64,000 nt of DNA from Acidimicrobiia bacterium (GTDB lineage Bacteria > Actinomycetota > Acidimicrobiia > Spongiisociales > UBA5794), in contig JASJDZ010000005.1 in the NCBI GenBank assembly GCA_030065575.1, positions 1,114-65,113 on the forward strand. The letters run 5' to 3'. Positions 21,861 to 47,005 of the stretch are shown here, one piece after another; the first letter of the stretch is position 1, and each line of letters begins with the position of its first letter. Below the pieces are notes generated by a model. That model was given only the letters and a program-made list of their open reading frames with translations, searched no databases and had not been told where the DNA came from. Made by a program: the position numbers and the translations under genes.

Positions 21861-23141
21861 ATGCGCAGACGGTTCCTCTTCTCGGTCCTGGCTTCGGATC
21901 TCATTGCTCTCGTCGTCGCCGTGCTCCTGGGCTCGGTGATCACGTTTGGCGAGCCGATTCCGTGGCTTGCGACACGATCCGATCAGAACGTGTGGCCGAT
22001 GCTGGGCCTGCTCTTTGGCGGTGCCTTGCTCGGGTCTTACACCAGCCTTCGGATGTGGGTACAGGGCGCACCACGGCCTTCCTACGGACGGGCGCTGGCG
22101 ATCGTCTCGATCGCTGCTGCATTCACCGCTCTCGGTATTGCCTTCGGCCGCCCTTCTTATTGGTCGCGGGCATATCTGGCTACAACAATCGGCCTCTGGC
22201 TTGTCGGTGCTGTGGTCCACCGCTACCTCCGCCGCCGCCGACCGTGGGCCGAGGATCTCGTCATTGTCACGGGGGAGAAGGGCCTTGTTGAGGACCTGCG
22301 TGACGCTGAGCACACCAATGTCTTGGAGGTATACGATCCCGCCGGCGAGCCTCCGGTTGAAGTCGATGTGAACTCGACGCTGATCGTTGATCTCCGGCCG
22401 GTGATGTCAGATCGGATGGCTCAGTTTGTCTCGTCGTGGAATCTGGCGGGTTACCCGGTTCGGGCGCTATCGACGGTATACGAGGAATACACCGGCCGGC
22501 TACCGATGGTCCACCTGGCCGAGGGATGGGAGTTGTCGGCTCCGGTCAGTCGAAATGAGTACGCAGGCTTCAAGCGGGGGATCGATACCGTTCTGGTGCT
22601 CTTGACCTCTCCGTTGTGGATTCTGCTGGCGGCCTCGATATGGATTGCCGTCCGGCTCGACTCGAAGGGCCCGGCCATCTACCGGCAGGATCGGATGGGG
22701 CGTGATGGTGAGCAATTCACTCTCTACAAGTTCCGGACGATGGTGCTCGATGCTGAGGCCGACGGGCCCCAGTTCGCTACGCAGAACGACGCCCGGCTCA
22801 CCAACATGGGCCGGCTGCTTCGTCGATTTCGCATTGATGAGATTCCGCAGCTGCTCAACGTCCTGAAGGGTGATCTCAGCCTGGTCGGACCCCGACCCGA
22901 GCGTCCGGTGTTCGTCGACCAGTTCGAGCGCTCGATCCCCTTCTACAGCTACCGGCACCTGGTGCGACCGGGAGTCACCGGCTGGGCTCAGGTGAACTTC
23001 GGCTACGCCGACAACGAGCGAGAAACCGTTGAGAAGCTCACCTACGACCTCTACTACGTCAAGCACATGTCGCCCTGGCTGGATCTGTCGATCCTCGGCC
23101 GGTCGATGTGGACCGTGATGAGCGGATTTGGCGCCAAGTGA
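21861..23141 (+). CDS. Polyprenyl-phosphate sugar-1-phosphate transferase (WbaP/EpsL-type bacterial sugar transferase)
   Basis: Four N-terminal TM spans then the conserved C-terminal domain (KRGIDTVLVLL...PAIYRQDRMGRDGEQFTLYKFRTM...DEIPQLLNVLKGDLSLVGPRPERP). Confidence 0.88.
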   Translation: MRRRFLFSVLASDLIALVVAVLLGSVITFGEPIPWLATRSDQNVWPMLGLLFGGALLGSYTSLRMWVQGAPRPSYGRALAIVSIAAAFTALGIAFGRPSYWSRAYLATTIGLWLVGAVVHRYLRRRRPWAEDLVIVTGEKGLVEDLRDAEHTNVLEVYDPAGEPPVEVDVNSTLIVDLRPVMSDRMAQFVSSWNLAGYPVRALSTVYEEYTGRLPMVHLAEGWELSAPVSRNEYAGFKRGIDTVLVLLTSPLWILLAASIWIAVRLDSKGPAIYRQDRMGRDGEQFTLYKFRTMVLDAEADGPQFATQNDARLTNMGRLLRRFRIDEIPQLLNVLKGDLSLVGPRPERPVFVDQFERSIPFYSYRHLVRPGVTGWAQVNFGYADNERETVEKLTYDLYYVKHMSPWLDLSILGRSMWTVMSGFGAK

Positions 23142-26156: not shown

Positions 26157-26226
26157 CGCTACTTCTCCTCAGGAATATCCCTACCGCAGCTATCCAGTAA
26201 CAGGCTAGCGGGGACCCAGAAGTTGG

Positions 26227-27948: not shown

Positions 27949-28047
27949 CAAACGACGCCCTTTCGTCCGGGGACGCCTTCCTAGCCCGATGCCCCCCCGA
28001 CGGTGTCGACAATAGTCACACTCGGCGGCTACCAATAGGGGCAATTC

Positions 28048-28053
28048 CTATAC
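28048..28053 (+). promoter_or_regulatory. -10-like hexamer TATACT, 7 nt upstream of GTG 28061
   Basis: TATACT-cgccggg-GTG. Partly overlaps a 5-bp inverted repeat ATAGG-N7-CCTAT (28034..28050). Confidence 0.35.
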
Positions 28054-28060
28054 TCGCCGG

Positions 28061-29020
28061 GTGTTTCTCACCAGGCCCCAACGGGTCTTTGCGATCCTGC
28101 TCAACTACCAGAATCCATCCGACACGCTGCGGTGTGTTTCGTCGCTGCGCCGCAGCACCATGAGGGGGATCTTCCCTGTTGTCATCGACAACGCCTCCGG
28201 CAATGGTGACAGCGAACAGTTGCAGGATGTCCTCGGCCCGGGCATCCCTGTGCTCGAAAGCCCGGAGAACCGTGGATACGCGGCGGGGAACAACATCGGG
28301 ATTCGCCACGCCCTCGATCGGGATGCGGACTACGTCTGGATCCTGAACCCGGACACGACCGTCGAAACCGACACCCTGCAGGGCCTGTTGACCACGATGG
28401 CGCTACATCCCGACGCGGGGTTCGTTGGTCCGGTGAATCTGATCGGAGATTCCGATCCGGCGTCCATCCAGTCGGCTGGAGGCAGAATCGACTGGGAGAG
28501 TGGGGCTGTCGCCGAGAGCTTCGATCGCGGCCGGGCCTACGCAGCTCGACCGAGGCGTGACCCATATGAGGTCGACTACGTGCAGGGCTCGAGCATGCTT
28601 GTCCGCCGGGCCGTATTCGAGGACATCGGCTTGTTGCCCGAGCACTACTTCCTGTACTTCGAAGAGACTGACCTGCAGGTGACGGCTTCTCGGCGTGGCT
28701 GGAAGAGCATCATCAACCCCCTGGCCAGGGCCTGGCACTTTCAAGGCTCAGCGACTCACCTGCCTGCGCCCTACTACACGTACTACTACATACGCGGCCG
28801 GATCCTGTTTGCCCGCAAGTTCACCGACTCCTCAGACGAGACGATTCGACGCGGGTTGAACGGCTTCATCAACGGATGGCGGTCACGCGTACGGGAACGA
28901 GCACCCGATTGGCTTGACGCACACAACACACTGGTCGAGTGGGCACTGGCCGACGGCTACGCAGGCGTCACCGGCGCTCGTGATGACGTCAACGCAATGC
29001 GAAGGCCGGGGATCCAGTGA
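28061..29020 (+). CDS. Family 2 glycosyltransferase (rhamnosyltransferase-like architecture)
   Basis: VFAILLNYQN...VIDNASGNGD...ENRGYAAGNNIG...WILNPDT pattern typical of GT2. Confidence 0.85.
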   Translation: MFLTRPQRVFAILLNYQNPSDTLRCVSSLRRSTMRGIFPVVIDNASGNGDSEQLQDVLGPGIPVLESPENRGYAAGNNIGIRHALDRDADYVWILNPDTTVETDTLQGLLTTMALHPDAGFVGPVNLIGDSDPASIQSAGGRIDWESGAVAESFDRGRAYAARPRRDPYEVDYVQGSSMLVRRAVFEDIGLLPEHYFLYFEETDLQVTASRRGWKSIINPLARAWHFQGSATHLPAPYYTYYYIRGRILFARKFTDSSDETIRRGLNGFINGWRSRVRERAPDWLDAHNTLVEWALADGYAGVTGARDDVNAMRRPGIQ

Positions 29021-32000
29021 CGTACGAGTACGACTTCGATCCGGCGGAACCGAACAACACCGCAGCCGCTGTTTACCGCCAGGCGCTCCGGGGAGGGAAC
29101 CGGGTGCTCGATCTGGGGAGTGGGCCGGGCATAGTTTCTGCCCGCCTGACAGCCAACGATGGCAGAGAGGTCGTGTGCGTTGATCGGTCGGCTGAAGCGC
29201 TCGAAGCCGCTCGCCGCCGCGGGATTGAATCAGTAGTCGAAGCCGACCTCGCCGACCCCGCCTGGGTCGATTCCGTACCCGGGGGTGAGTTCGACGTGAT
29301 CATCATGGCCGACGTCCTCGAGCACCTCGTGGACCCGGCCGCGCTCCTGCAGTGTATTGCGGACAGAAACCTGCTCACGGGAGACGGGAAGCTGGTCATT
29401 TCCATCCCGAACGCGGGCCACGAGGCAGTGCTGGCCGAGCTGATGAGAGGCCGGTTCACCTACGAGGAAACGGGACTGCTCGACTCGACGCATCTGCGCT
29501 TCTTCACCCTGGCCAGCCTTCGTGAGTTGCTCGAGCGTTCGGGGTTCTTCATAACGACGGTGGAGCGCACAAGACGGACAGCCGAGCAGACTTCCCTGGC
29601 AGTCCGCGACGTGACGTTGCCGGCGGACCTGCGCGATCGGGTCTTGGAGGCAGCGGCTGAGGCACAGACTTATCAATTCATCGTTAGCGCCCGCCATGCG
29701 GATGCGGCAGCCGAGCTTGCAGATGTGCGGGAGGACCTGAGGATCGTGAGAGCTCAGCTTGCGGAGCAAGATCGGGTCGCGGTTGCCAATGAGGAATCCG
29801 ATCTGAGGGCTGAACGTGACGCCGCGACCGCCCGGGCGGCGGCATCACAGCGCGAGCAAGAGAGACTGGAGCTGGAGAAGCGCCAGATCGAACATCGGCT
29901 GTCTGAGGTGGAGTCGGCCCTCGATCGGGAGCGCAAGCTCACAGCCGCGGAGAGAAAACGTTGCGAAGAGTTGCTGAAGAGTGCGAAACGACAAGCTGCA
30001 GCTGCACCGAGCACCGAGGCTAGCCGCACGATTGCCCGGTTGGAGAAGCAACTGGATGACATCTACGCGTCAAACACGTGGAGGGTGGGGCGTGCCGCCT
30101 GGACCGCCTTCCACGCGCCGGCTCGGCTGTTGAGGAAGTGGCGTCGCTCGCCGGAGACATCTTCTGCGGCTCCATCGGGGCCGGCCGCCGTGCAGAATCC
30201 TGCTGACTACCACCTCAGCGAAGACATAGCTGTGCGGCGGGAGTACGAGCGGGCCCTTGCCCGCACGGAGTTCTCCGGGACGAAGCGCAATGTTGCGTTT
30301 GCCGTCTACACGACCGATCTCGACGAGGGTCGCGGGGATCTGTTCACCGCGGTGGGCCTAGGACGGGAGTTGGAGCGAAACGGATTCGAGGTGGTCTACC
30401 TCCCACAGGAGCAGTGGTACGAGTTGCCTCCGTCTACCGAGATCGTCGTTGCGATGCTCGAAACGTTCGATTGCAGCAGGGCGCCGGCGGAGGTGACGAA
30501 GGTGGCGTGGATCCGCAATCAGACTGATGTGTGGATCCGGCAGGCGTGCCTGCCGCTGTTTGACATCGTGCTGGCGTCGTCGGAGGCGACGCGCCAGCGG
30601 GTGGCTTCGACTTACCCGGGACCGATGGCGGTTCTTCCGATCGGGGTCGATGTCGAGCTATTCCGCGGTGAGGCCGACCCTGAGGGCCGCCACGGGGTCG
30701 TCGCAACGGTGAATCAGTGGGGGCGGGAGCGCGAAGTACACGGCTTCCTCAAGGAGAGGAAACCGGATTTCGAGCTGGCTCTCTTCGGCCAGCAGCGAGG
30801 CATGGCAGCCGAGCTGCTTCCGTATGCCCAGGGCCCGGTGTCCTTCTTCAGTCTCCCGTCCCTCTACAGGCAAGCCAGCGTCGTACTCGATGATTTCAAC
30901 CACACCACGGCCCCATACGGAAATGTCAACTCGCGCCTCTTCGAGGCTGTCGCCAGCGGGGCGATCGTGCTGACCAACAGAGGAGCCGGGCTGTCGGTGC
31001 TGGGGCTAGAGGAAGTTGGTGTCTTCTCTACTGCGCGGGAGTTGTTCGAACTGATCGACCAGAACCTCGAGTCTGCAGACGCGTTTGCAGCTGTCGAGAC
31101 GCTGCAGCAAACGGTCCTCGAACGGCACAGCTACAAGCAGCGGGCAATCGAGTTCCAGCAGCATCTGGCCAGCATGGCTGATCACCCAGTCGATGACGCA
31201 GTCGTCATCAGCTACTACCCGGACTATCGAGACAATCCCTTCACGGAGATGCTGTGGTCCGACCTGCGTAGCCGTCGCAGCATTGCCATTCCCGTTGGGA
31301 ATGATCTCAGCTTCACGGCGACGGTTCGAGCCGGCGAGCATCGGCCGACTGTCTTTCATCTCAATTGGACTGCGCCGATTCTTGGCGGCGCAACGGACGA
31401 GCATGATCGGTTGGTGCGCCATCGTCGATTCCTCGAGGCTATCGACGAGATGCACGAGCGCGGTATCCCTTCGGTGTGGACCGTCCACAACGTATTGCCC
31501 CACGAGTGCGCCGATCCTGAGCTCGAAGCGCAGCTTCGACAGGAGATCGCCGACCGGGTCGACATCATTCACGTTATGTGTGAGCAGACGATTGCTGCCT
31601 GCGCTGACTGGTATCAGCTCCCCGATAGCAAGGTCCGGGTCATCCCGCACCCCGGCTACATCGACGTCTACCCGAATCTCTTCGACAGGAGCGCTGCCCG
31701 GCGTGAACTGGGGATCGGCGATGAGGAGTTCGTCTACCTCTGTTTCGGTCAGGTGCGACCGTACAAGGGGATCGATCGGCTGCTCGACGCGTTCGAGAAC
31801 GTTGCGCAGCTGGACACAACTGCGCGACTTCTGCTTGTTGGCAAGCCCGGGCGGTTTGAAGGGATCCGCCAAATCGTCGATCGAGCACGAGCCCATCCCC
31901 AGATAACCGGGTGCCTGAATCCGATTCCCGATAGCGACGTGCAGCTCTATCTGAATGCGGCGAATGCTGTTGTACTTCCGTACCAGACGGCACTGAATAG

Positions 32001-32256
32001 CGGGGCGCTGCTGCTGGCCTACTCATTTGCCCGCCCGGTTGTTGCGCCGAACGTCGGGTGTCTGCGTGGCCTGGTGGATGACAGCACCGGAGTTGTCTTC
32101 GACCGCAACGGTGGAACTATCGCTTTGCAGAACGCAATGCTGTCGGCTCGCCAGCTCGACGACGGCCACGGTGCAGCGGCTTACGAGCGAGCTGCCGATC
32201 TTCACTACCTCAGTATCAGCCGACGATTCAGCGAGATCATCGACGGTCTGTTCTAG
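29017..32256 (+). CDS. Giant fusion protein: class I SAM methyltransferase, ~125-aa coiled coil, CgeB-like GT-B module, GT4-like GT-B module
   Basis: VLDLGSGPGIVSARL SAM motif. Heptad-rich Glu/Arg/Ala/Leu segment at nt ~29695..30075. LFEAVASGAIVLTN (Glyco_trans_1_2-like). C-terminal LLLVGKPG...VVLPYQTALNSGALLLAYSFARPVVAPNVG. GTGA overlap with the preceding GT2. Confidence 0.85.
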   Translation: MTYEYDFDPAEPNNTAAAVYRQALRGGNRVLDLGSGPGIVSARLTANDGREVVCVDRSAEALEAARRRGIESVVEADLADPAWVDSVPGGEFDVIIMADVLEHLVDPAALLQCIADRNLLTGDGKLVISIPNAGHEAVLAELMRGRFTYEETGLLDSTHLRFFTLASLRELLERSGFFITTVERTRRTAEQTSLAVRDVTLPADLRDRVLEAAAEAQTYQFIVSARHADAAAELADVREDLRIVRAQLAEQDRVAVANEESDLRAERDAATARAAASQREQERLELEKRQIEHRLSEVESALDRERKLTAAERKRCEELLKSAKRQAAAAPSTEASRTIARLEKQLDDIYASNTWRVGRAAWTAFHAPARLLRKWRRSPETSSAAPSGPAAVQNPADYHLSEDIAVRREYERALARTEFSGTKRNVAFAVYTTDLDEGRGDLFTAVGLGRELERNGFEVVYLPQEQWYELPPSTEIVVAMLETFDCSRAPAEVTKVAWIRNQTDVWIRQACLPLFDIVLASSEATRQRVASTYPGPMAVLPIGVDVELFRGEADPEGRHGVVATVNQWGREREVHGFLKERKPDFELALFGQQRGMAAELLPYAQGPVSFFSLPSLYRQASVVLDDFNHTTAPYGNVNSRLFEAVASGAIVLTNRGAGLSVLGLEEVGVFSTARELFELIDQNLESADAFAAVETLQQTVLERHSYKQRAIEFQQHLASMADHPVDDAVVISYYPDYRDNPFTEMLWSDLRSRRSIAIPVGNDLSFTATVRAGEHRPTVFHLNWTAPILGGATDEHDRLVRHRRFLEAIDEMHERGIPSVWTVHNVLPHECADPELEAQLRQEIADRVDIIHVMCEQTIAACADWYQLPDSKVRVIPHPGYIDVYPNLFDRSAARRELGIGDEEFVYLCFGQVRPYKGIDRLLDAFENVAQLDTTARLLLVGKPGRFEGIRQIVDRARAHPQITGCLNPIPDSDVQLYLNAANAVVLPYQTALNSGALLLAYSFARPVVAPNVGCLRGLVDDSTGVVFDRNGGTIALQNAMLSARQLDDGHGAAAYERAADLHYLSISRRFSEIIDGLF

Positions 32257-32298: not shown

Positions 32299-32745
32299 AT
32301 GCAGAGAGAGTCAGTCTGGGATTATCCACGGCCACCGGCCGTTGAGGGCACAGCCAAGCGAATTCGGGTTGTTCTCAACGATGTCGCAATCGTGGACACG
32401 ACCGATGCTTATCGCGTGCTCGAAACTAGCCACCCCCCGGTCTACTACCTACCGCGCAACGCGCTTGCCAACGTCGATCTCGTGCCCAACTCGCGGCGCA
32501 CCTTCTGCGAGTTCAAGGGAGTTGCTCACTACTGGGACATCAGGGTGGGAAACCGCTTCGTCCCTGCCGCCGCGTGGTCGTACCCGAGCCCTACCTCGGG
32601 CTACGAAGCCCTGGTGGATCGCCTGGCCTTCTATCCGAGCAAGATGGACGAGTGCTGGGTCGGCGACCAGTTGGCGACACCTCAGAAGAGCGACTTCTAC
32701 GGCGGATGGATTACGCCGGAGATCGACGGTCCGTTCAAGAGCTGA
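32299..32745 (+). CDS. DUF427 domain protein (alternative GTG start 32275)
   Basis: ESVWDYPRPP...ETSHPPVYYLP...FCEFKGVAHYWD...AWSYP pattern as I remember for DUF427. Confidence 0.75.
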   Translation: MQRESVWDYPRPPAVEGTAKRIRVVLNDVAIVDTTDAYRVLETSHPPVYYLPRNALANVDLVPNSRRTFCEFKGVAHYWDIRVGNRFVPAAAWSYPSPTSGYEALVDRLAFYPSKMDECWVGDQLATPQKSDFYGGWITPEIDGPFKS

Positions 32746-34090
32746 TTTCTATCACCCGGTAGTCGACGACACCGGCGAAGTACATAGTGCCGCCGGGGCC
32801 CACGTAGTAGGCAGCCCGCGGAGAATCGGCATTGAGCTTGGCGGTGACATCGTTGTACGCCACTTCGGCGGTCTCCTGACCGGCGGCCATCTCGACTACC
32901 ACGTACACCCCGTCAGCTGTGTCCAACTCGAGGCGTTCGCCGGTCTCCCGGGTGCCTTGCTCAGATGACTGGAAGCTGTCGGCGAATGCGGCAAGGAAAT
33001 CTGCAGCAAGGTCGCGACCCAGGACTATGTCGTGCACCGAGCGTTGCACCGAGACATGGATGATCGTTGTGGCAGCTTCGAGGTCATTCCACATGTGCCC
33101 GCCGGCGGGATTGGTTTCCGCAATGAAGGCTGCCTGCTCGAAGTACGGCGCAAGCATCGGGGTCAGGGCCCAGCCGTAGGAATCGTGCATCACCAGCGAA
33201 CGGCCGGTGACCACCGGGGCGGTTGCCGTGAAGTCCACCGCAACCACGCTGTCGTACTCCGTCCCGGCAGCTGTCAGTAATGGCCTTGTCGCCCGTGTGT
33301 GCTCCGAGCCCGGGATTACCACGTCTAGGTCGGTGCTCTCCTCCGTGGCAGGGAGGCCAAGTAGCACGGTCAGGTCGCCCTCGTGCTCGACGGTTGCCGT
33401 CTCCGTGATTACCTCATCGGACCAGCCCCCGGGAGTGAGCCTTTCGACAATCGCTTCGGCCATGATCCCGGCACCCTCGTTGGTCCAATGCGTGTCGAGC
33501 CGGAAGTAGATGGGCCGTTCGTTGGCTCGCGCCGTGCTCATCTCGTCCCACACTGTGATCAGATTGTCCGGACTATCGAGAGCCGCAAGCGCAAGGGCAT
33601 TCTCGTCGACGCACGTGTCGTCGTCGGGCAGGAAGTCGGGGATGATGGTGGCCTTGTCCGGAGCGACTGCGAAGACGAGGTCGCGTCCCGTTGCCGCAAC
33701 GATCGCCGTCGCCCGGCTGAGGCTATCGACGACCGTGTCCAACTCGGCACTCGTCAGACAGGGGCGGTCGAGAGACAACGTGTAGTAGAGCCACCCGTTG
33801 GTGCCGATGGTGACTTCGGGATTCGGGTTGTCGCCGATGGCAACATCGGTCCAGGCCTCGGCCGCCACTGCGGTCGGGGCGATGATCAGCGAGTCCTCCA
33901 GATACTGATCGAGCTGAGGGGTCAGCTCTCGGTCCAGGATTCCCTCAACGGTGATCTCAGGCAGGGGAGTCGGCGGCCGGTTCTGATTTGGCTCCGGGCG
34001 CATGCCGATGGCGAACACGATCACGGGGACCGTGATCAACGCGACGAAGATCAGAGCGATGATCTTGGCTTCGAACTTCTTCACATGCAC
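32735..34090 (-). CDS. AlgX/AlgJ-like (SGNH-like, DxHW motif) extracytoplasmic O-acetyltransferase partner, N-terminal membrane anchor
   Basis: One N-terminal TM helix. YFRLDTHWTNEG motif. GTG start 1 nt after the stop of the MBOAT gene. Confidence 0.75.
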   Translation of the reverse strand: MHVKKFEAKIIALIFVALITVPVIVFAIGMRPEPNQNRPPTPLPEITVEGILDRELTPQLDQYLEDSLIIAPTAVAAEAWTDVAIGDNPNPEVTIGTNGWLYYTLSLDRPCLTSAELDTVVDSLSRATAIVAATGRDLVFAVAPDKATIIPDFLPDDDTCVDENALALAALDSPDNLITVWDEMSTARANERPIYFRLDTHWTNEGAGIMAEAIVERLTPGGWSDEVITETATVEHEGDLTVLLGLPATEESTDLDVVIPGSEHTRATRPLLTAAGTEYDSVVAVDFTATAPVVTGRSLVMHDSYGWALTPMLAPYFEQAAFIAETNPAGGHMWNDLEAATTIIHVSVQRSVHDIVLGRDLAADFLAAFADSFQSSEQGTRETGERLELDTADGVYVVVEMAAGQETAEVAYNDVTAKLNADSPRAAYYVGPGGTMYFAGVVDYRVIEISS

Positions 34091-34091
34091 C

Positions 34092-35510
34092 TCAGAACTG
34101 GTAATACAAGAAAGGGCTGAATGATCCGCTGGCGACGACGATCATCACGTACGGGAGGGCAACGGCCACTTCGGCAATACGGACGGCGGCACCGCGAACT
34201 CCCCGCCAACCGGTGACCAGCAAGCCGCCGACCAGGTTCCCCGGGAGGAAAACTGAGGCAACGCCGAGACCCATGGCAACGATGGCGCGCGTATCGATGG
34301 CAGCCGTCACGGCTTCGGGCGTGATACCTCCTAGTGTGAACATCGCTCCGAGATACTCCCAGGCGAAGGTTGCATTCGGGCTCCGGAACACGACCCACCC
34401 GACCATCACCGCCAGCAGGGTGATTGCCCGGCGTAGCGGGGCCCACCTGACCTCTCCGTCGACCGACCGCTGCCCGGTGAGCCTCTCGGCCACGAGCCAT
34501 CCACCGTGATAGACGCCCCACAGGAGGAAGGTCCAGTTGGCGCCGTGCCAGATGCCGGCGAGCACAAAGACGGTCCAGAGGTTGGCCATCGTCCTCACCG
34601 AACTCCCTCGCGATCCCCCCAGCGGGATGTACACGTAGTCGCGGAACCAGTTGGAGAGCGTGATGTGCCAGCGGCGCCAGAAGTCGGTAATGGAAACGGC
34701 CGAATAGGGACGGCGGAAGTTCTCCGGGAAGTCGAAACCCAGCATGGTGCCGAGGCCGATTGCCATGTCGGAATACCCCGAGAAGTCGAAGTAGATCTGG
34801 ACGGTGTAGGCGGCAACGCCAAGCCACGCTCCGGCGGGCCCGAGCCCGGCAGCTTCAGCGGCGAACGCGGCATCGGCGATCGGGGCAACCGCGTCGGCGA
34901 TCAGGACCTTCTTGGCAAGACCGTGCGCAAACCTCGCCGCCCCGGAGGCGAATCGCTCGATGGAGAGGACACGGTCCTGGAGCTGGTCGGAGATCTCGTG
35001 GAAACGGACAATCGGACCGGCCACCAGCTGGGGGAACAAGGTCACGTAGAGCCCGAAATCCAGGATATTGCGGAGGTGCTCAACCCTTCCCCGCGACACA
35101 TCGATCGTGTAAGACATCGACTGGAACGTGAAGAACGAAATCCCGATCGGTAGCACCACCGATGTCCAGGCGATGTCGCCGAAGCCGAGCGAGTTCAGTT
35201 GCTCAACGAAGAAGTTGGCGTACTTGAAATACGACAGAAGCCCGAGGTTGACCAGCACGGATCCGGCCACGCCGAAGCGAACCAGAGTGCGTCTGTTGGT
35301 GCGTACTCCCGTGCCGACGATCCAACCCATGGCAAAGTCGACAACCGTCGAAATCACCAGCAGCAAGACGAGGGCGCCGCCTCCCCAGGTGTAGAAAACC
35401 AGAGATGAGAGCAGCAGCCAGCCATTCCTGAGACGTCGGCCGATCAGGTAATAGCCGCCCAAGCAGATGGGGAGGAAGAAGAACAGGAAAGTGACTGACG
35501 AGAAGACCAT
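34092..35510 (-). CDS. MBOAT family membrane O-acyltransferase (AlgI/DltB/PatA type)
   Basis: 472 aa, about 10 hydrophobic spans, conserved FWRRWHITLSNWFRDYVYIPLGGSR histidine region. Confidence 0.9.
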   Translation of the reverse strand: MVFSSVTFLFFFLPICLGGYYLIGRRLRNGWLLLSSLVFYTWGGGALVLLLVISTVVDFAMGWIVGTGVRTNRRTLVRFGVAGSVLVNLGLLSYFKYANFFVEQLNSLGFGDIAWTSVVLPIGISFFTFQSMSYTIDVSRGRVEHLRNILDFGLYVTLFPQLVAGPIVRFHEISDQLQDRVLSIERFASGAARFAHGLAKKVLIADAVAPIADAAFAAEAAGLGPAGAWLGVAAYTVQIYFDFSGYSDMAIGLGTMLGFDFPENFRRPYSAVSITDFWRRWHITLSNWFRDYVYIPLGGSRGSSVRTMANLWTVFVLAGIWHGANWTFLLWGVYHGGWLVAERLTGQRSVDGEVRWAPLRRAITLLAVMVGWVVFRSPNATFAWEYLGAMFTLGGITPEAVTAAIDTRAIVAMGLGVASVFLPGNLVGGLLVTGWRGVRGAAVRIAEVAVALPYVMIVVASGSFSPFLYYQF

Positions 35511-35526: not shown

Positions 35527-35629
35527 CGCGTTGACTAGTGCGTCCCTGAGGATTGCCTTCGGTCGGCAGGCCGCTCCGCCTTACCGATTCACATTTGTGC
35601 CGAACTCAGCTTCATTACGGCCTCCTGAT

Positions 35630-35671
35630 ATCAACTGCGCCGAAGATCACCGGCGGTAGTAGATCAACTGC
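35630..35671 (+). repeat. Direct repeat ATCAACTGC x2 (35630..35638 and 35663..35671), 33 bp apart, upstream of cysD
   Basis: Read directly. The second copy sits where a -35 element for TAATCT (35687..35692) would lie (TCAACT, 17-bp spacer). Confidence 0.5.
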
Positions 35672-35686
35672 CTCCCCACCAGCCAC

Positions 35687-35692
35687 TAATCT
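35687..35692 (+). promoter_or_regulatory. -10-like hexamer TAATCT, 10 nt upstream of cysD ATG
   Basis: TAATCT-ccggacggct-ATG. Confidence 0.25.
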
Positions 35693-35702
35693 CCGGACGG
35701 CT

Positions 35703-36611
35703 ATGTCGTCCTACCGCCTTTCGCACCTCAGTGCGCTCGAAGCCGAAAGCGTCCATATCATCAGGGAAGCCGTTGCCGAAGGGGAACGTCCCGTCCTGCT
35801 GTTCTCCGGCGGCAAGGACTCGGCGGTCCTGCTGTGGCTGGCCATGAAAGCGTTTCATCCTGCCCGGTTGCCCTTCCCCGTCATGCACGTGGACACAGGG
35901 CACAATTTCCCCGAGGTGCTGGATTTCCGGGATCGAGTTGTCGCCGGGCTGGGAGCCGAATTGGTCGTTGCCTCCGTGCAGGAGGCGATCGACGAGGGAC
36001 GCGTGGTCGAGGAAACCGGTCCCCGCGCCAGCCGCAACCGGCTGCAGACCGAGCCCCTCCTGAAGGCAATCACCGACAACAGATTCGACGTTGTCTTCGG
36101 TGGCGGCCGACGCGACGAGGAGAAGGCAAGAGCCAAGGAGCGAGTCTTCTCGTTCCGCGACGAGTTTGGGCAGTGGGATCCGAAGAATCAGCGGCCTGAA
36201 CTGTGGAGCCTCTACAACGGTCGGCATCGTGTCGGTGAGCACCTGCGGGTCTTCCCCATCTCCAACTGGACCGAGGCCGACATCTGGCAGTACATCGAGC
36301 GGGAGAACATCGAGTTGCCATCCGTCTATTTCTCGCATCGGAGAATGGTGTTTGAGCGCGACGGCATGCTCATGGCCGACTCGGATCACATCGAGCGGTT
36401 CGATCATGAGCAGGTGTTCGAGGCTGTTGTGCGCTTCCGTACCGTGGGGGACATGTCGTGCACCGGCGGGTTTGCGTCGACAGCGGCGACCGTCGCCGAG
36501 ATCATTGCCGAGGTCTCGGCCTCGAGAATCACCGAGCGGGGAGCGAGCCGCGCCGACGATCTGACTGCCGAGGCTGCCATGGAGGACCGCAAGCGGGAGG
36601 GTTATTTCTGA
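35703..36611 (+). CDS. cysD: Sulfate adenylyltransferase subunit 2
   Basis: ATG at 35703. LLFSGGKDS PP-loop and conserved C-terminal RADDL...MEDRKREGYF. Confidence 0.93.
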   Translation: MSSYRLSHLSALEAESVHIIREAVAEGERPVLLFSGGKDSAVLLWLAMKAFHPARLPFPVMHVDTGHNFPEVLDFRDRVVAGLGAELVVASVQEAIDEGRVVEETGPRASRNRLQTEPLLKAITDNRFDVVFGGGRRDEEKARAKERVFSFRDEFGQWDPKNQRPELWSLYNGRHRVGEHLRVFPISNWTEADIWQYIERENIELPSVYFSHRRMVFERDGMLMADSDHIERFDHEQVFEAVVRFRTVGDMSCTGGFASTAATVAEIIAEVSASRITERGASRADDLTAEAAMEDRKREGYF

Positions 36612-38838: not shown

Positions 38839-39636
38839 TCAGGAGGCGCGAGGCTGACAGGTCTCGCACCACCAGAGCGTCCTGTTGGCCATTTCTCCCG
38901 ATGAAATCGGTCCGCCGCACACCCAGCACGGGTAGCGGTCGCGCTTGTACACGTAGAGACGGTCTACCGCGTTCCTTCGCTTTGCTCGTCGCGGCACCGT
39001 GGTGATCTTCCCCTCTTTCACTCCCTTACGGAGCAAGCGCACGCTGGTCGTCCAGATCTCTGTCGCCTGGTCGCCGGTGATTTTGTTGGCGGGGATCGCC
39101 GGGTGGATGCCGGTTAGGAAGAGGGCCTCGGCACGGTAGATGTTGCCCAGGCCGGCCACAACTGCCTGGTCGATGATGGCAGCCCCGACCGGGATCGAAC
39201 GGCGGGCAAGCTTGTCGATGAAGACGGAGGCGTTGTGGCCCCGTCTTCCGGCCTGCAGCGGGTCGGGGCCGAGGCGGGAGCGGATGGCCTCTTCGCCGGA
39301 TGGTTCGACCAGTTCGCAGACGGTGGGGCCGGCCAGGTGGATGGTTGTCTCCTCGGTGCTCAGGGTCAGCCGCGTGTTGGGTGTCGGCGCTCCGGGAGTG
39401 CCGCGAAAGACCCGGTACTTCCCGTAGAGCCCGAGGTGGATGTGCAGGGTTTCCGCCCGCTCCCACTTGTAGAAGAGGTGCTTGCCGTGCGCTTGGACAT
39501 CCAACAGTCGTCGCCCGCTGAGCCGGGCGGCACCGCGGGCGAACCGTCCCTGCGGAGACGCAGCCGCAACAATCTGCCCGGCGAGTAGCTCCCGGTGCCG
39601 ATTGGCGTGGCGGAGAATGGAATGTCCTTCAGGCAT
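38839..39636 (-). CDS. nei: Fpg/Nei family DNA glycosylase (endonuclease VIII-like)
   Basis: N-terminal MPEGH (Pro2/Glu3), H2TH region (GLGNIYRAEALF), C-terminal zinc finger CWVCGG...CETCQ. Confidence 0.85.
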   Translation of the reverse strand: MPEGHSILRHANRHRELLAGQIVAAASPQGRFARGAARLSGRRLLDVQAHGKHLFYKWERAETLHIHLGLYGKYRVFRGTPGAPTPNTRLTLSTEETTIHLAGPTVCELVEPSGEEAIRSRLGPDPLQAGRRGHNASVFIDKLARRSIPVGAAIIDQAVVAGLGNIYRAEALFLTGIHPAIPANKITGDQATEIWTTSVRLLRKGVKEGKITTVPRRAKRRNAVDRLYVYKRDRYPCWVCGGPISSGEMANRTLWWCETCQPRAS

Positions 39637-39659
39637 GAGAGAAGAGTTGGGAAGAGGGT

Positions 39660-39678
39660 GGCAACGAAGATAGTTGCC
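39660..39678. promoter_or_regulatory. Inverted repeat GGCAAC-N7-GTTGCC whose spacer carries a minus-strand TATCTT -10-like hexamer (upstream of nei, in the nei/wzm divergent region)
   Basis: Read directly. Same 6-N7-6 geometry and CAAC/GTTG core as the repeat at 52385..52403. Confidence 0.3.
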
Positions 39679-39714
39679 GCGACGCCCAAGAAACCCGAAG
39701 GACGGCCTTGCACC

Positions 39715-39720
39715 TATAAT
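39715..39720 (+). promoter_or_regulatory. Perfect TATAAT hexamer, 9 nt upstream of the ATG of the ABC permease gene
   Basis: TATAAT-cccgcacct-ATG with no SD-like sequence. Conspicuous in a GC-rich context. Confidence 0.45.
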
Positions 39721-39729
39721 CCCGCACCT

Positions 39730-40599
39730 ATGCCCCCAACCTCAGTCGCTTCTGGTCGCGCAGTCAGGGCAGCTCGCAACTACCTCTTGGATCTATGGAG
39801 TAGGCGCGAGTTCGCCTGGTATCTCGCCATGGGCAACCTCAAGGCGCGCAACGCTTCAACCACACTCGGGCTCTTCTGGTGGGTCCTCAACCCGCTGCTG
39901 CTCGGCAGCGTCTACTGGCTTGTCTTCGGCCTCATCTTCGATCGCGGCACGCTGGATGTGACCAGCCGGGCGCTCGCTCCCGGCGAGGAGTTGCCCTTCC
40001 TGGCCTACTTGCTCTCGGGGATGTTCCCGTTCTACTTCACCCAGACCTCGATGACCGGGGGAGTCAACAGCATCGTGTCGAACGCCCGGCTGATGGCCAA
40101 TCTCAGCTTCCCCCGCTTGATTCTCCCGATCGCTGCCCTCATCGAGAGCGCAGTTGGCTTCCTGACCTCGGTTGGGGTGTTCTTCGTGGTCGTTGGCCTG
40201 GTCAACGGAATCTGGCCGGGACCGTGGACGCTCTGGTTGCTGCCCACGATCATGATCCACGTCCTCTTCAACTTCGGCTTGTCGACGATCGTTGCGCGCA
40301 TTGCCGTGCCCTTCCGCGATCTCAATAACCTCGTTCCCTACTTCACCCGGCTGTGGCTCTATCTCTCACCGATCCTCTATCAAGCGTCGTTCCTCGAAGG
40401 GAAGGGCGAGTTCGTGGAAACCGCCTTCCGGCTCAATCCGCTCTTCCCGATCCTCGAGCTGTATCGATACTCGTTCGCCGGCATCGAAATTGATCTGGGG
40501 AGCACTCTCCTGATCGCGATCGCCTGGGCGGTCGGCCTCGCCGTTATCGGCGCAACATCGTTCATCAAATACGAGGGCAAGATGGCGAGGTACCTATGA
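39730..40599 (+). CDS. ABC-2 type polysaccharide/teichoic-acid export permease (Wzm/TagG-like)
   Basis: ATG 39730. REFAWYLAMGNLKARN N-terminal motif typical of ABC-2 permeases and six hydrophobic spans. Confidence 0.85.
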   Translation: MPPTSVASGRAVRAARNYLLDLWSRREFAWYLAMGNLKARNASTTLGLFWWVLNPLLLGSVYWLVFGLIFDRGTLDVTSRALAPGEELPFLAYLLSGMFPFYFTQTSMTGGVNSIVSNARLMANLSFPRLILPIAALIESAVGFLTSVGVFFVVVGLVNGIWPGPWTLWLLPTIMIHVLFNFGLSTIVARIAVPFRDLNNLVPYFTRLWLYLSPILYQASFLEGKGEFVETAFRLNPLFPILELYRYSFAGIEIDLGSTLLIAIAWAVGLAVIGATSFIKYEGKMARYL

Positions 40600-41342
40600 G
40601 CACTCCGGCCATCGTTGGGGAGGGCATCACCGTACGGTTCCGTCCGATGGTCGATCGCAAGCCGACACTGCGGCGCTCTCTGGGGAGGATGCAGCACCGT
40701 GAGACTAAGGAACTCGTCGCCCTGGACAACGTCGATCTGAGCATCAAGAAGGGCGAGGCGTTCGGCATCGTTGGCCGGAACGGTGCGGGAAAGAGCACAC
40801 TGCTCAAGGTTGTGGCCAAGACCCTTCGGCCCGATGAAGGCACGATCAACGTCTTTGGCAAGACGTCGACGTTGTTGCAGCTCGGGGTTGGCTTCAATCC
40901 GCATCTATCCGGCCGTCGCAACGTGTATCTGGGCGGATTGGCTGCGGGGCTGCGCAAGAAGGAGATCGACGAACGCTTCGATGACATCATCGAGTACGCC
41001 GAGCTGTGGGATGCGGTTGATCGTCCGGTTCGCACCTACTCATCCGGCATGTTCTCCCGACTTGCGTTTTCGGTCGGAATGGCGATGGAGCCAAACATCC
41101 TGCTCCTCGACGAGGTTCTCGCAGTCGGCGACGAAGCCTTCCGCGAGAAGAGCATGAAGGCCATGCGAGACCTTCTCGACCGGGCCGGCACGATTGTGTT
41201 CGTGAGTCACGCGCTGCCCAATGTCGCCGAGTTCTGCGATCGGGCTATGTGGCTCGCCGATGGCAAGGTCAGGTCGATCGGGCCTAGTGCCGACGTGGTT
41301 GACGCCTACAAGACTGCCGTCCATAGAGGCAAGAACAAGTAG
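40596..41342 (+). CDS. ABC exporter ATP-binding protein (Wzt/TagH-like), nucleotide-binding domain only
   Basis: ATGA overlap with the permease. Walker A GRNGAGKST, signature YSSGM, Walker B ILLLDE. 248 aa, no C-terminal extension. Confidence 0.9.
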   Translation: MSTPAIVGEGITVRFRPMVDRKPTLRRSLGRMQHRETKELVALDNVDLSIKKGEAFGIVGRNGAGKSTLLKVVAKTLRPDEGTINVFGKTSTLLQLGVGFNPHLSGRRNVYLGGLAAGLRKKEIDERFDDIIEYAELWDAVDRPVRTYSSGMFSRLAFSVGMAMEPNILLLDEVLAVGDEAFREKSMKAMRDLLDRAGTIVFVSHALPNVAEFCDRAMWLADGKVRSIGPSADVVDAYKTAVHRGKNK

Positions 41343-46920: not shown

Positions 46921-46989
46921 TTGGCGTCCTCCGTCATCGACCGGATCCGGTCTGGGCCGCATGGTAATCCCGGACAAGCCGAGGCTCGG

Positions 46990-47005
46990 GCCTGCTCGGG
47001 CAGGC
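46990..47005 (-). terminator. Short GC hairpin GCCTGC-N4-GCAGGC 11 nt downstream of the acyltransferase stop
   Basis: 6-bp stem read directly. No U-tract. Weak call. Confidence 0.25.

What the first reader, a model, noticed from the sequence alone, without database searches (positions are those of the whole stretch)
29017..32256. Methyltransferase - coiled coil - GT - GT fusion resembling a terminator/ruler/polymerase in one chain
In ABC-transporter-dependent O-antigen systems, chain length is set by a terminating enzyme held on a coiled coil. In E. coli O9a this is the WbdD kinase/methyltransferase. In Klebsiella O12, WbbB joins a terminator, a coiled coil and polymerase GT modules in one protein. 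This 1079-aa protein has the same logic: an N-terminal SAM methyltransferase, a ~125-aa heptad-rich segment (nt ~29695..30075), then two GT-B modules. It is co-located with wzm/wzt. This would be a Gram-positive/actinobacterial example in which methylation is the cap.
Basis: partly seen in the sequence, partly recalled or inferred. Interest (0 to 1): 0.65.

Follow-up and report, generated by a model that had tools for sequence, protein, structure and literature searches.

The report
Methyl-capping, ruler and polymerase fusion
One 1079-residue protein of an uncultured actinobacterium (class Acidimicrobiia) joins a methyltransferase, a very long helix and two sugar-adding enzymes, a layout already known from other bacteria for building a surface sugar chain and stopping it at a set length; the unusual point is that its export pump lacks the usual cap-reading domain.

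Summary
The ORF is real: 29017-32256 (+), 1079 aa, GTG start overlapping the stop of an upstream GT2 gene. It has a class I SAM methyltransferase (aa 1-227, SAM motifs invariant in 32 homologs), a ~120-residue helix (aa 229-350), a conserved basic amphipathic segment, a disordered linker and two GT-B glycosyltransferase modules.

Two details are weaker than stated. Heptad periodicity is not significant in this protein (p~0.2-0.3), though it is in 19 of 32 homologs. wzm/wzt lie 7.3 kb away behind six other genes, though they directly follow the ortholog in one related genome.

Comparative data favour the terminator/ruler/polymerase reading. The helix is the only part that varies in length (77-170 aa). 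The MT-helix-amphipathic unit also exists as stand-alone, WbdD-like proteins. In the wider MT family the nearby Wzt usually carries the cap-binding Wzt_C domain.

The design is not new. WsaE (Geobacillus, Gram-positive), Klebsiella O7 ORF6 and WbbB are precedents, and similar MT-helix-GT fusions occur in Bacillota and Proteobacteria. The departure is that this actinobacterial subfamily pairs with short, CBM-less Wzt. GT-B2 also lacks the GT4 EX7E motif. Terminal methylation and ruler function remain untested.

The parts
29017..32256 (+). Whole ORF, 1079 aa: MT - long helix - amphipathic segment - linker - GT-B1 - GT-B2
   Evidence: ORF list and translation. Pfam. AF2 model, mean pLDDT 84.3. 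43 database clusters with the full architecture at 39-75% identity. 18 full-length representatives at the 50%-identity level in 1.84 billion proteins.
29017..29697 (+). Class I SAM-dependent methyltransferase domain, aa 1-227 (proposed capping enzyme)
   Evidence: Methyltransf_23 E 8.9e-23. Closest solved structure is 3cc8 (B. cereus BCE_1332): profile E 4.5e-51, TM 0.76. SAM-motif residues invariant.
29104..29130 (+). SAM-binding motif I, VLDLGSGPG (aa 30-38)
   Evidence: D32, G34 and G36 invariant in 32 full-length homologs. G34 invariant and D32 nearly invariant in the 27-sequence alignment that includes stand-alone homologs.
29461..29508 (+). Family signature loop Y-x-E-T-G-L-L-D-x-T-H-L-R-F-F-T (aa 149-164); inferred acceptor-binding or catalytic lid
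   Evidence: Y149, G153, L154, L155, D156, T158, H159 and R161 invariant in fused plus stand-alone members. Shared with 3cc8. Low pLDDT at aa 150-159 despite the conservation. The functional role is inferred.
29701..30066 (+). Long helix, aa 229-350 (101-residue helix, 3-residue break at 330-332, 18-residue helix); proposed coiled-coil spacer or ruler, up to ~18 nm if straight
   Evidence: AF2. One P/G in aa 224-351. Composition of aa 229-350: 43% charged, 20% Ala, 19% large hydrophobic. Length 77-170 aa and 25% identity among homologs. Heptad periodicity significant in 19 of 32 homologs but not in this protein.
30070..30147 (+). Conserved S-N-T-W-R-V-G-R motif plus basic amphipathic helices (aa 352-377); inferred membrane-interface anchor or docking element
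   Evidence: Second-highest hydrophobic moment in the protein (muH 0.69, net +4). Basic in all 30 homologs where the motif was found (net +4 to +11). Stand-alone MT-helix proteins end with the same element. The protein has no TM segment.
30148..30225 (+). Disordered Pro/Ser/Ala-rich linker (aa 378-403)
   Evidence: pLDDT <50 at aa 366-392. 19% identity and 24-41 aa among homologs.
30226..31176 (+). GT-B module 1, aa 404-720, CgeB-like (Glyco_trans_1_2)
   Evidence: Pfam 1.6e-14. Two Rossmann halves in AF2. Invariant G438-R-G-D441, W498, R500, D625, N638, R640, E643. Paralogous to both GT-B domains of the 996-aa protein at 60909-63899 (E 4e-35 and 6e-15). No solved relative by sequence.
31204..32256 (+). 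GT-B module 2, aa 730-1079, GT4-type by Pfam but without the EX7E motif
   Evidence: Glyco_trans_1_4 2.7e-13, Glycos_transf_1 2.9e-11, Glyco_transf_4 2.6e-10. MshA and PimB' are the best solved relatives. K917 aligns with MshA K236. MshA E316 and E324 align with A992 and the invariant L1000.
28061..29020 (+). GT2 glycosyltransferase (319 aa), translationally coupled to the target; inferred adaptor or co-polymerising transferase
   Evidence: Pfam Glycos_transf_2 2.7e-15. Weak rhamnosyltransferase and GlfT1 similarity, below cut-off. Precedes the target in 14 of 15 related loci (frameshifted in L004), and also precedes the MT-less GT-GT forms.
21861..23141 (+). Polyprenyl-phosphate glycosylphosphotransferase (Bac_transf); initiating enzyme
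   Evidence: Pfam 1.9e-61. TIGR03025 at 311.5 bits, above cut-off. Directly upstream of GT2-target in L008 and L014.
39595..41342 (+). wzm (334 aa) and wzt (248 aa), an ABC-2 glycan exporter; Wzt has no carbohydrate-binding module
   Evidence: ABC2_membrane and ABC_tran. Galactan and teichoic-acid Wzm/Wzt-type NCBIfam hits. No Wzt_C. Orthologs directly follow the target in L003 and lie 6 kb downstream in L007.
32735..35510 (-). AlgX-like SGNH protein (451 aa) and MBOAT (472 aa); inferred O-acylation of the exported glycan
   Evidence: Pfam ALGX 6.2e-19 and MBOAT 1.1e-34. The pair is conserved next to the target's orthologs in L003, L004, L006, L007, L011, L012, L015 and L021.
60909..63899 (-). 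996-aa protein: short N-terminal coiled-coil-like and basic amphipathic segment, GT2, two CgeB-like GT-B domains; probable partner in the same pathway
   Evidence: Pfam. N-terminal composition. Paralogy to GT-B1. Its ortholog directly follows wzt in L003.

Best explanation
The protein is a soluble, membrane-peripheral assembly enzyme for an ABC-transporter-dependent cell-envelope glycan of an uncultured Acidimicrobiia bacterium.

Proposed sequence of events. Step (i) rests on confident domain assignments and conserved synteny, which are shown; the roles assigned to each enzyme are inferred, and steps (ii)-(iv) are inferred throughout.
(i) The Bac_transf enzyme primes a polyprenyl phosphate. 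The translationally coupled GT2 and the two GT-B modules of this protein extend the chain at the cytoplasmic face.
(ii) The conserved basic amphipathic segment (aa 352-377) holds the GT end of the protein at the membrane or docks it to partners. The ~120-residue helix, probably an oligomeric coiled coil, projects the N-terminal methyltransferase up to ~18 nm away.
(iii) Only chains long enough to reach the methyltransferase are O-methylated at the non-reducing end. That blocks the acceptor hydroxyl and stops growth, so helix length biases chain length.
(iv) The finished chain is exported by a CBM-less Wzm/Wzt. The exporter therefore does not read the cap. The chain is then probably O-acylated by the MBOAT/AlgX pair and attached to the envelope.
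For: Architecture and fold. SAM pocket invariant in 32 homologs.

Pathway context. GT2->target coupling in 14 of 15 related loci. A contiguous Bac_transf->GT2->target operon in L008 and L014. wzm-wzt directly after the target in L003 and in the same neighbourhood in L007/L012 and the window.

Spacer signature. Helix 77-170 aa at 25% identity, against fixed-length catalytic domains at 46-54%. Heptad periodicity significant in 19 of 32 homologs.

Modularity, as in WbdD/WbdA versus WbbB. Stand-alone MT-helix-basic-tail proteins. Forms with helix remnant plus tail plus GT-GT, and forms with GT-GT only.

Link of this MT family to capping. Of 35 loci with a Wzt near a family member, 29 have a long Wzt, and 9 of 9 tested carry Wzt_C. 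Four of these are Acidimicrobiia loci in which the MT-helix-tail gene abuts wzt.

Published principle: the terminator sits at the distal end of a coiled coil, with an amphipathic helix and the polymerase at the membrane end (PMC11231755, PMC3482155). Methyl cap added by an MT-GT-GT enzyme in a Gram-positive: PMC2943079.
Against: No glycan structure is known, so terminal methylation is unproven.

The helix of this particular protein shows no significant heptad periodicity (p 0.19-0.28). Its oligomeric state is unknown.

Wzt lacks the CBM that accompanies every characterised terminated system (PMC11231755). The quality-control half of the classical mechanism is therefore missing.

Related clusters carry additional methyltransferases (L005, L008, L009), so methylation need not be terminal only.

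For WsaE, in vitro methylation was independent of chain length (PMC2943079).

wzm/wzt are absent within 10 kb in the two Micromonosporaceae isolate loci examined there, L001 and L002.

GT-B2 lacks EX7E, so its donor and mechanism are unknown.
Confidence: 0.55

Rival explanations
1. Decorating enzyme rather than terminator. The methyltransferase methylates internal residues, once per repeat or at random, as the chain is made. The helix serves only to oligomerise or scaffold the enzyme. Chain length is set by coupling of synthesis to export, as in CBM-less systems such as Klebsiella O2a.
For: Wzt has no CBM here or in related fused loci. Klebsiella O2a, with a CBM-less transporter, couples extension to export without a terminator (PMC11231755). 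Extra MT genes in related clusters suggest heavily methylated glycans. No significant heptad signal in this protein. [quoted passage not shown]
Against: A decorating MT has no evident need to be held ~120 helical residues away from the GT sites. The helix is the one element whose length varies freely. The same MT family is mostly found beside cap-reading Wzt_C exporters. The MT-helix-tail unit exists on its own in the WbdD layout.
Confidence: 0.25
2. Docking helix rather than ruler. The helix and basic tail mainly mediate homo- or hetero-oligomerisation with other proteins that carry the same element, such as the 996-aa GT at 60909-63899. This assembles a multi-enzyme complex at the membrane, and distance plays no measuring role.
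For: The 996-aa multi-GT protein of the same window begins with a short coiled-coil-like stretch plus a basic amphipathic segment. Many relatives are helix remnant plus tail plus GT-GT without an MT (16 representatives start at profile positions 259-375). The C-terminal region of WbdD recruits the polymerase WbdA (PMC3482155, PMC11231755).
Against: Docking needs only a short coil, yet the fused forms keep 77-170 residues. Docking and ruler roles are not exclusive; in WbdD both hold.
Confidence: 0.15
3. S-layer glycoprotein glycan, as for WsaE. The product is transferred to the adjacent SLH-domain surface proteins rather than to peptidoglycan or a lipid. This rival concerns the destination of the glycan, not the enzyme's mechanism.
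For: Two SLH proteins are encoded immediately upstream (23193-28044), also in close relatives L004, L006, L011 and L021. A large TPR protein lies in the region (48155-51262), and the Geobacillus slg cluster also has a TPR protein, WsaA (PMC2943079).
Against: The SLH genes sit on the opposite strand between Bac_transf and GT2, which are adjacent in L008 and L014. They look like a lineage-specific insertion. Micromonosporaceae and other homolog loci have no SLH genes but have LCP ligases nearby (L002, L005). No O-oligosaccharyltransferase (Wzy_C type) was found among the window ORFs scanned.
Confidence: 0.15

Closest known systems
WbbB (Klebsiella pneumoniae O12 / Raoultella terrigena)
   Same: One chain with an N-terminal terminator, a coiled coil and two C-terminal polymerising GT modules. 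ABC-transporter-dependent (PMC11231755).
   Different: The WbbB terminator is a beta-Kdo glycosyltransferase, not a methyltransferase, and its Wzt carries a CBM that reads the cap. Here the terminator candidate is a SAM-MT and Wzt has no CBM. No sequence relationship was seen among solved structures.
ORF6 of Klebsiella pneumoniae O7
   Same: N-terminal methyltransferase, central coiled coil and two C-terminal GT modules in one protein, with a further GT as a separate protein. Shown to be terminator plus polymerase (PMC11231755).
   Different: ORF6-O7 (GT modules at residues 766-1140 and 1141-1414) adds a kinase and an Ig-like CBM. It caps with methyl-phosphate and uses GT2 (GT-A) modules. The target has no kinase or CBM, would methylate a sugar hydroxyl directly, and uses two GT-B modules.
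WbdD + WbdA (E. coli O8/O9a, Klebsiella O3/O5)
   Same: [quoted passage not shown] The O8/O5 form is MT-only with a methyl cap. WbdA is a multi-GT-B (GT4) polymerase (PMC3482155, PMC11231755). The stand-alone MT-helix-basic-tail relatives of the target reproduce the WbdD layout.
   Different: Here terminator and polymerase are fused, so the amphipathic element is internal. The MT is not a detectable WbdD relative: absent from 32 PDB profile hits at E<=1e-6 and from the top 50 fold matches. The exporter has no Wzt_C.
WsaE (Geobacillus stearothermophilus NRS 2004/3a S-layer glycan)
   Same: Gram-positive. An N-terminal O-methyltransferase that makes the terminal 2-O-methyl cap, plus two GT domains in one soluble protein. 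The pathway has a Bac_transf-type initiating enzyme (WsaP), adaptor GTs and Wzm/Wzt (PMC2943079, PMC3898925). A Bacillota protein with the same MT family and an MT-coil-GT2-GT2 layout is in L054.
   Different: WsaE makes alpha-1,2 and alpha-1,3 rhamnosyl linkages and sits in a cluster with rmlABCD.
BCE_1332 of Bacillus cereus (PDB 3cc8), a methyltransferase of unknown function
   Same: A true family member of the MT domain (profile E 4.5e-51, 28-30% identity, TM 0.76). It shares the SIPN...H and GLLD-x-TH-x-RFFT motifs.
   Different: A 230-aa single domain without helix or GT modules. Its substrate is unknown.

Membership tests
Coiled-coil terminator-polymerase proteins of ABC-transporter-dependent glycan assembly (WbbB / KpO7 ORF6 type) | A chain-terminating enzyme domain at the end of the protein distal to the GT modules | tested here: inconclusive
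   An intact, conserved SAM-MT occupies that position. Its family is associated with cap-reading exporters. Terminating activity itself cannot be shown from sequence.
Coiled-coil terminator-polymerase proteins of ABC-transporter-dependent glycan assembly (WbbB / KpO7 ORF6 type) | An extended coiled coil between the terminator and polymerase modules | tested here: inconclusive
   A ~120-residue helix in two AF2 models. Heptad periodicity is not significant in this protein (p 0.19-0.28) but is significant in 19 of 32 homologs. It is not an ER/K single alpha-helix. Oligomeric state not testable here.
Coiled-coil terminator-polymerase proteins of ABC-transporter-dependent glycan assembly (WbbB / KpO7 ORF6 type) | Polymerising GT modules in the same polypeptide | tested here: met
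   Two GT-B modules, aa 404-720 and 730-1079. That they polymerise is inferred.
Coiled-coil terminator-polymerase proteins of ABC-transporter-dependent glycan assembly (WbbB / KpO7 ORF6 type) | Wzm/Wzt ABC transporter encoded with the biosynthesis genes | tested here: met
   wzm/wzt at 39595-41342, 7.3 kb downstream. Directly adjacent to the ortholog in L003 and nearby in L007/L012. Not within 10 kb in the two Micromonosporaceae isolate loci examined there (L001, L002).
Coiled-coil terminator-polymerase proteins of ABC-transporter-dependent glycan assembly (WbbB / KpO7 ORF6 type) | A carbohydrate-binding module (Wzt_C) on the Wzt nucleotide-binding protein that recognises the cap | tested here: not met
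   Wzt is 248 aa with an ABC_tran domain only. A custom Wzt_C HMM found nothing in the window or in 15 related loci, while positive controls scored 176-216 bits.
Coiled-coil terminator-polymerase proteins of ABC-transporter-dependent glycan assembly (WbbB / KpO7 ORF6 type) | The glycan carries a non-reducing terminal modification, and chain length depends on coil length | not testable with these tools
   Needs glycan chemistry and mutagenesis.
WbdD family (E. coli O8/O9a terminator) | Sequence or fold homology of the MT domain to the WbdD MT | tested here: not met
   WbdD is absent from the 60 best PDB sequence hits at E<=10, from all 32 profile hits at E<=1e-6, and from the top 50 Foldseek matches of the MT-helix model.
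WbdD family (E. coli O8/O9a terminator) | N-terminal catalytic domain(s), then a coiled coil, then a membrane-associated amphipathic helix | tested here: met
   MT, helix, then a basic amphipathic segment (muH 0.69, net +4). Stand-alone relatives end there. Membrane binding is inferred.
WsaE-type MT-GT-GT enzymes (S-layer glycan, Bacillota) | An N-terminal O-methyltransferase and two GT domains in one soluble protein of a Wzm/Wzt pathway | tested here: met
   (no TM segment). Layout as described in PMC2943079.
WsaE-type MT-GT-GT enzymes (S-layer glycan, Bacillota) | dTDP-rhamnose-dependent, with rml genes in the cluster | tested here: not met
   No rmlA, rmlC or rmlD orthologs in the 64-kb window. 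rml-type genes do lie beside orthologs in L004, L005, L006 and L008, and beside a stand-alone MT in L009. The donor sugar is therefore open.
WsaE-type MT-GT-GT enzymes (S-layer glycan, Bacillota) | Sequence homology to WsaE | not tested
   The WsaE sequence is not in any collection I could query by name.
Class I SAM-dependent methyltransferases (Pfam Methyltransf_23) | Rossmann-like fold with a Gly-rich motif I and an acidic residue at the end of strand 2 | tested here: met
   Score 81.2 bits against a cut-off of 27. VLDLGSGPG and D56 invariant. Fold match to 3cc8.
CAZy GT4-type retaining GT-B glycosyltransferases (for GT-B2) | EX7E motif in the C-terminal Rossmann domain | tested here: not met
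   In the alignment to MshA, E316 and E324 correspond to A992 and the family-invariant L1000. EX7E is reported in all GT4 structures (PMC3898925). The Pfam GT4-type models are nevertheless passed, and the pyrophosphate Lys is kept (K917 = MshA K236).

The most novel reading that the evidence does not exclude
A self-contained chain-length device that works without a cap-reading exporter. In this actinobacterial subfamily the methyl cap would act purely as a chemical stop, placed by an intramolecular ruler. A generic, CBM-less Wzm/Wzt would export whatever is finished. Termination and export quality control, obligatorily linked in every characterised system, would then be separable. The same helix-plus-basic-tail element on MT-less GT proteins, such as the 996-aa GT of this window, would let one terminator serve several polymerases through mixed coiled coils. 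The product could be the envelope glycan that goes with the adjacent SLH surface proteins of Acidimicrobiia, whose envelope chemistry is essentially unknown.
Probability: 0.3. Interest if true: 0.6.

Novelty: new variant of a known kind. Interest (0 to 1): 0.4.

Why it matters
Control of chain length by a terminator held on a coiled coil has been worked out almost entirely in Enterobacteriaceae O-antigens, where it is tied to a cap-binding module on the exporter. This locus and its relatives show the same modular kit in Actinomycetota: an MT-helix-amphipathic unit, free or fused to GT modules. One subfamily pairs with a CBM-less exporter. If confirmed, that would show that termination and export proof-reading can be uncoupled. 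It would also give a compact one-protein system for making glycans of defined length, and a first handle on envelope glycan synthesis in Acidimicrobiia, a widespread uncultured soil and water group. If the MT only decorates the chain, the finding is an ordinary multidomain glycosyltransferase.

Tried and rejected
(1) Heptad tests on the window protein: Fourier power at 3.5, a band maximum over 3.3-3.8, a sliding 28-aa a/d score, and a clade-averaged profile. None beats composition-matched shuffles, so the coiled-coil call rests on homologs and on AF2.

(2) Single-alpha-helix (ER/K) alternative. Rejected: only 43% charged residues, and no enrichment of i/i+3 or i/i+4 salt pairs (24 against 21.6 +/- 3.9).

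(3) Homology of the MT to WbdD. Not found by sequence, profile or fold.

(4) A separate Wzt_C/CBM protein in the window or in 15 related loci. None.

(5) Sulfotransferase, LCP ligase, rmlA/C/D and YfhO orthologs in the window, searched with seeds taken from related loci. None; only generic SDR hits.

(6) Promoter and terminator scan of 21.5-33 kb. No promoter-like sites, and terminator-like sites at the chance level.

(7) In one search my GT-B2 query was cut out of frame (31200 instead of 31201). The T_GTB2 rows of that table are meaningless and were not used.

(8) A full-model Foldseek search was dominated by GT4 and MT single-domain hits. No multi-domain template such as WbbB or WbdD appeared in the top 50.

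(9) The 2015 WbdD ruler paper (doi 10.1038/nsmb.2935) is not held, so I give no numerical comparison of coil lengths.

Full report
WHAT IS THERE. The ORF is exactly as reported: 29017..32256 on the + strand, 1079 codons. Its GTG start overlaps the TGA stop of an upstream GT2 gene (28061..29020) in the sequence GTGA, so the two genes are translationally coupled. Pfam places a class I SAM methyltransferase at aa 24-180 (Methyltransf_23, 8.9e-23). A CgeB-like GT-B domain lies at aa 573-713 (Glyco_trans_1_2, 1.6e-14), and a GT4-type GT-B at aa 813-1042 (Glyco_transf_4, Glycos_transf_1, Glyco_trans_1_4). Nothing is assigned between aa 181 and 572.

An AlphaFold2 model built on 32 homologs (mean pLDDT 84.3) resolves the gap:
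- MT fold to aa 227.
- One continuous helix, aa 229-329, a three-residue break, then a helix at aa 333-350.
- Two short helices, aa 353-374.
- A disordered stretch to about aa 395.
- Two complete GT-B modules, aa 404-720 and 730-1078.
A second model of aa 1-380, built with stand-alone homologs, gives the same helix at pLDDT 92-98. The protein has no transmembrane segment. The window's ATP synthase beta subunit is 85-91% identical to proteins named as Acidimicrobiia MAGs, so the organism is an uncultured member of that class of Actinomycetota.

TWO POINTS OF THE OBSERVATION ARE WEAKER THAN WRITTEN. First, the segment is helical and almost free of Pro and Gly, but in this protein its hydrophobic periodicity near 3.5 residues does not exceed composition-matched shuffles (p 0.19-0.28; only aa 333-350 reaches p 0.005). 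In the window's own clade the spectrum peaks at 3.60. The periodicity is significant in 19 of 32 family members, mostly at 3.46-3.56. The segment is not an ER/K single alpha-helix either: 43% charged, 20% Ala, 19% large hydrophobics, and no excess of i/i+4 salt pairs. 'Coiled coil' is therefore a family-level inference. Second, wzm (39595-40599) and wzt (40596-41342) exist, but they are 7.3 kb away, behind an AlgX-like/MBOAT pair on the other strand, cysD, cysN, cysC and an fpg-like gene.

CONTEXT IN RELATIVES. The full architecture recurs in 43 database clusters at 39-75% identity, from Acidimicrobiia MAGs, Ca. Microthrix and Micromonosporaceae isolates (Solwaraspora, Micromonospora). It corresponds to 18 full-length representatives at the 50%-identity level among 1.84 billion proteins.
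- GT2 coupling. The GT2 gene precedes the target in 14 of 15 related loci and is frameshifted in the fifteenth.
- Initiating enzyme. In L008 and L014 the order is Bac_transf, GT2, target, with no gap, just after the ATP synthase operon. In the window the two SLH-protein genes (23193-28044, minus strand) therefore look like an insertion between Bac_transf (21861-23141) and GT2.
- Exporter. In L003 the order is GT2, target, wzm, wzt, a 990-aa GT2 + CgeB-like protein, GT4, GT2, Bac_transf, with AlgX/MBOAT just upstream. The genes that are spread over 40 kb in the window form one cluster there.
- Other neighbours. L007/L012 keep wzm-wzt 6 kb downstream. rml-type genes lie next to the ortholog in L004, L005, L006 and L008. 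LCP ligases lie nearby in L002 and L005.
- What the window lacks. It has no rmlA/C/D, LCP or YfhO orthologs.

EVIDENCE ON MECHANISM.
(1) The SAM pocket is intact. Motif I (D32, G34, G36), D56, D93, D99 and E102-H103 are invariant or nearly so. The most conserved feature after the SAM motifs is the loop Y-x-E-T-G-L-L-D-x-T-H-L-R-F-F-T (aa 149-164). It is shared with stand-alone homologs and with PDB 3cc8, and I take it to be the acceptor site (inference).
(2) Domain-wise conservation shows a spacer. MT, GT-B1 and GT-B2 have 54, 49 and 46% mean pairwise identity, with length sd <=2 aa. The helix has 25% identity and spans 77-170 aa.
(3) In every homolog where the motif was found (30 of 32), the helix is followed by S-x-T-[WYF]-[RK]-x-G and a strongly basic amphipathic stretch (net +4 to +11). 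In the window protein this stretch has the second-highest hydrophobic moment in the protein.
(4) The MT-helix-tail unit is an autonomous module. A large set of 280-385 aa proteins, 46-60% identical to the MT domain, end right after the same tail. This is the layout published for WbdD: catalytic head, coiled coil, membrane-associated amphipathic helix (PMC11231755, PMC3482155). Conversely, relatives of the GT part exist as helix remnant + tail + GT-GT (16 representatives) and as GT-GT only. The GT-GT-only forms examined (L018, L019, L020, L022) are still preceded by the same GT2.
(5) The wider MT family is tied to cap-reading exporters. Among 67 more distant loci (MT 32-43% identical; Proteobacteria, Cyanobacteria, Bacillota, other Actinomycetota), 35 have a Wzt in the fetched flank. 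Of these, 29 are >=380 aa. All nine tested carry Pfam Wzt_C, including four Acidimicrobiia loci where the MT-helix-tail gene abuts wzt. Together these points make a capping role for this MT family likely.

THE DEPARTURE. The window's Wzt is 248 aa with no Wzt_C. The Wzt of the fused-subfamily loci L003 and L007/L012 are 264 and 246 aa. A custom Wzt_C HMM finds nothing in the window or in 15 related loci, while positive controls score 176-216 bits. The 2024 Klebsiella study states that in all terminated O-polysaccharide examples a CBM is attached to the transporter's nucleotide-binding domain (PMC11231755). So either the cap is a purely chemical stop that the exporter does not read, or the MT in this subfamily decorates rather than terminates. 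A further difference concerns GT-B2. In the alignment to MshA the pyrophosphate lysine is kept (K917 = K236). The EX7E glutamates, however, correspond to A992 and the invariant L1000, although EX7E is reported in all GT4 structures (PMC3898925). Donor sugar and stereochemistry therefore should not be read from the 'GT4' label.

COMPARISON WITH WHAT IS KNOWN.
- WsaE of Geobacillus stearothermophilus is a Gram-positive, soluble MT + two-rhamnosyltransferase protein whose MT makes the terminal 2-O-methyl cap of an S-layer glycan. It sits in a Wzm/Wzt pathway started by a Bac_transf-type enzyme (PMC2943079, PMC3898925).
- ORF6 of Klebsiella O7 is MT-kinase-CBM-coiled coil-GT2-GT2, and has been shown to terminate and polymerise (PMC11231755).
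- Fusions of the same MT family with a charged helical segment and GT2 and/or GT4 modules occur in Bacillota (L054, L058) and Proteobacteria (L063, L071, L075, L082, L085).
- The MT itself is not a detectable relative of the WbdD MT. Its closest solved relative is the uncharacterised BCE_1332 (3cc8), and sugar O-methyltransferases such as AtmM and RebM are among its fold neighbours.
The resemblance to WbdD and WbbB is therefore one of design, not of descent.

VERDICT. This is a new, uncharacterised actinobacterial variant of a known kind of enzyme. Its features are two GT-B modules, an MT-only head, an internal amphipathic element and a CBM-less exporter. Shown: the domain architecture, the intact SAM site, the conserved GT2/Bac_transf/Wzm-Wzt context, the modularity, the length-variable helix and the absence of a CBM. 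Inferred: terminal methylation, the ruler function, membrane anchoring by the amphipathic segment, oligomerisation, and the nature and destination of the glycan. I put about 0.55 on the capping-ruler-polymerase mechanism and 0.25 on a decorating MT with an export-coupled chain length.

Noticed in passing
window 60909-63899 (-): A 996-aa protein with a short N-terminal coiled-coil-like stretch and a basic amphipathic segment (aa ~8-77), then GT2 and two CgeB-like GT-B domains paralogous to the target's GT-B1 (E 4e-35 and 6e-15). It has no MT. Its ortholog directly follows wzt in L003, so it probably works in the same pathway.
   Followed up: partly
window 35553-38472 (+): cysD, cysN and cysC (sulfate activation to PAPS) sit inside the glycan region next to MBOAT. 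cysD/cysN lie beside MBOAT/AlgX in L004, L007, L015 and L021, with cysC also detected in the last three. L007 also has a sulfotransferase, a sulfate permease and CysQ. This hints at a sulfated glycan, but no homolog of that sulfotransferase is in the window.
   Followed up: partly
window 32735-35510 (-): An AlgX-like SGNH protein plus an MBOAT, conserved beside the target's orthologs in eight related loci. This is probably an extracytoplasmic O-acylation system for the exported polymer.
   Followed up: partly
window 23193-28044 (-): Two secreted SLH-domain proteins (987 aa with Calx-beta domains; 605 aa), wedged on the opposite strand between Bac_transf and GT2. Those two genes are adjacent in L008 and L014. 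SLH surface proteins in Acidimicrobiia suggest an S-layer or an SCWP-anchored envelope. No pyruvyltransferase was seen among the ORFs scanned.
   Followed up: partly
window 41349-43076 (+): A DUF6044 protein (575 aa, about nine hydrophobic segments) starts 7 nt after wzt. In L007 the gene after wzt is a YfhO-like membrane protein. It may be a GT-C-like extracytoplasmic glycosyltransferase or ligase coupled to the exporter.
   Followed up: no
window 51272-58890 (-): A complete pseudaminic-acid-type nonulosonic acid pathway: NeuB/PseI-like, an epimerase, an ATP-grasp protein, PseG (TIGR03590, 2e-70), a CMP-sugar synthetase, a DegT aminotransferase and a PseB-like dehydratase. It is followed by a GT4+GT2 fusion at 58917-60848.
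   Followed up: no
window 44118-47010 (-): A CDP-hexose pathway: glucose-1-phosphate cytidylyltransferase (TIGR02623, 5e-101), CDP-glucose 4,6-dehydratase (TIGR02622, 5e-128) and an epimerase/reductase. It is flanked by a GT2 (43069-44121) and an Acyl_transf_3 (47017-48093). It supplies a CDP-6-deoxyhexose for one of the glycans made here.
   Followed up: no
window 48155-51262 (+): A 1035-aa TPR-repeat protein inside the glycan region. The Geobacillus S-layer glycosylation cluster also contains a TPR protein, WsaA (PMC2943079).
   Followed up: no
L058:10001-12781 (Thermincola ferriacetica MAG) and L031, L041: After the coiled coil, many MT-helix proteins carry an S-x-S-W-R-x-T-A-P-x-R-type motif, for example SHSWRVTAPVRW and SRSWRLTAPLRA. 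The actinobacterial S-x-T-W-R-x-G-R looks like a variant of it. This seems to be a widespread, unnamed signature that marks the membrane-proximal end of these coils.
   Followed up: partly
window 28044-28061: The mechanically called starts of the divergent SLH gene (26227-28044, minus) and GT2 (28061, plus) are only 16 nt apart. At least one start is probably over-extended: the SLH protein's hydrophobic signal-like segment is at aa 36-55, and the GT2 Pfam match starts at aa 14.
   Followed up: no
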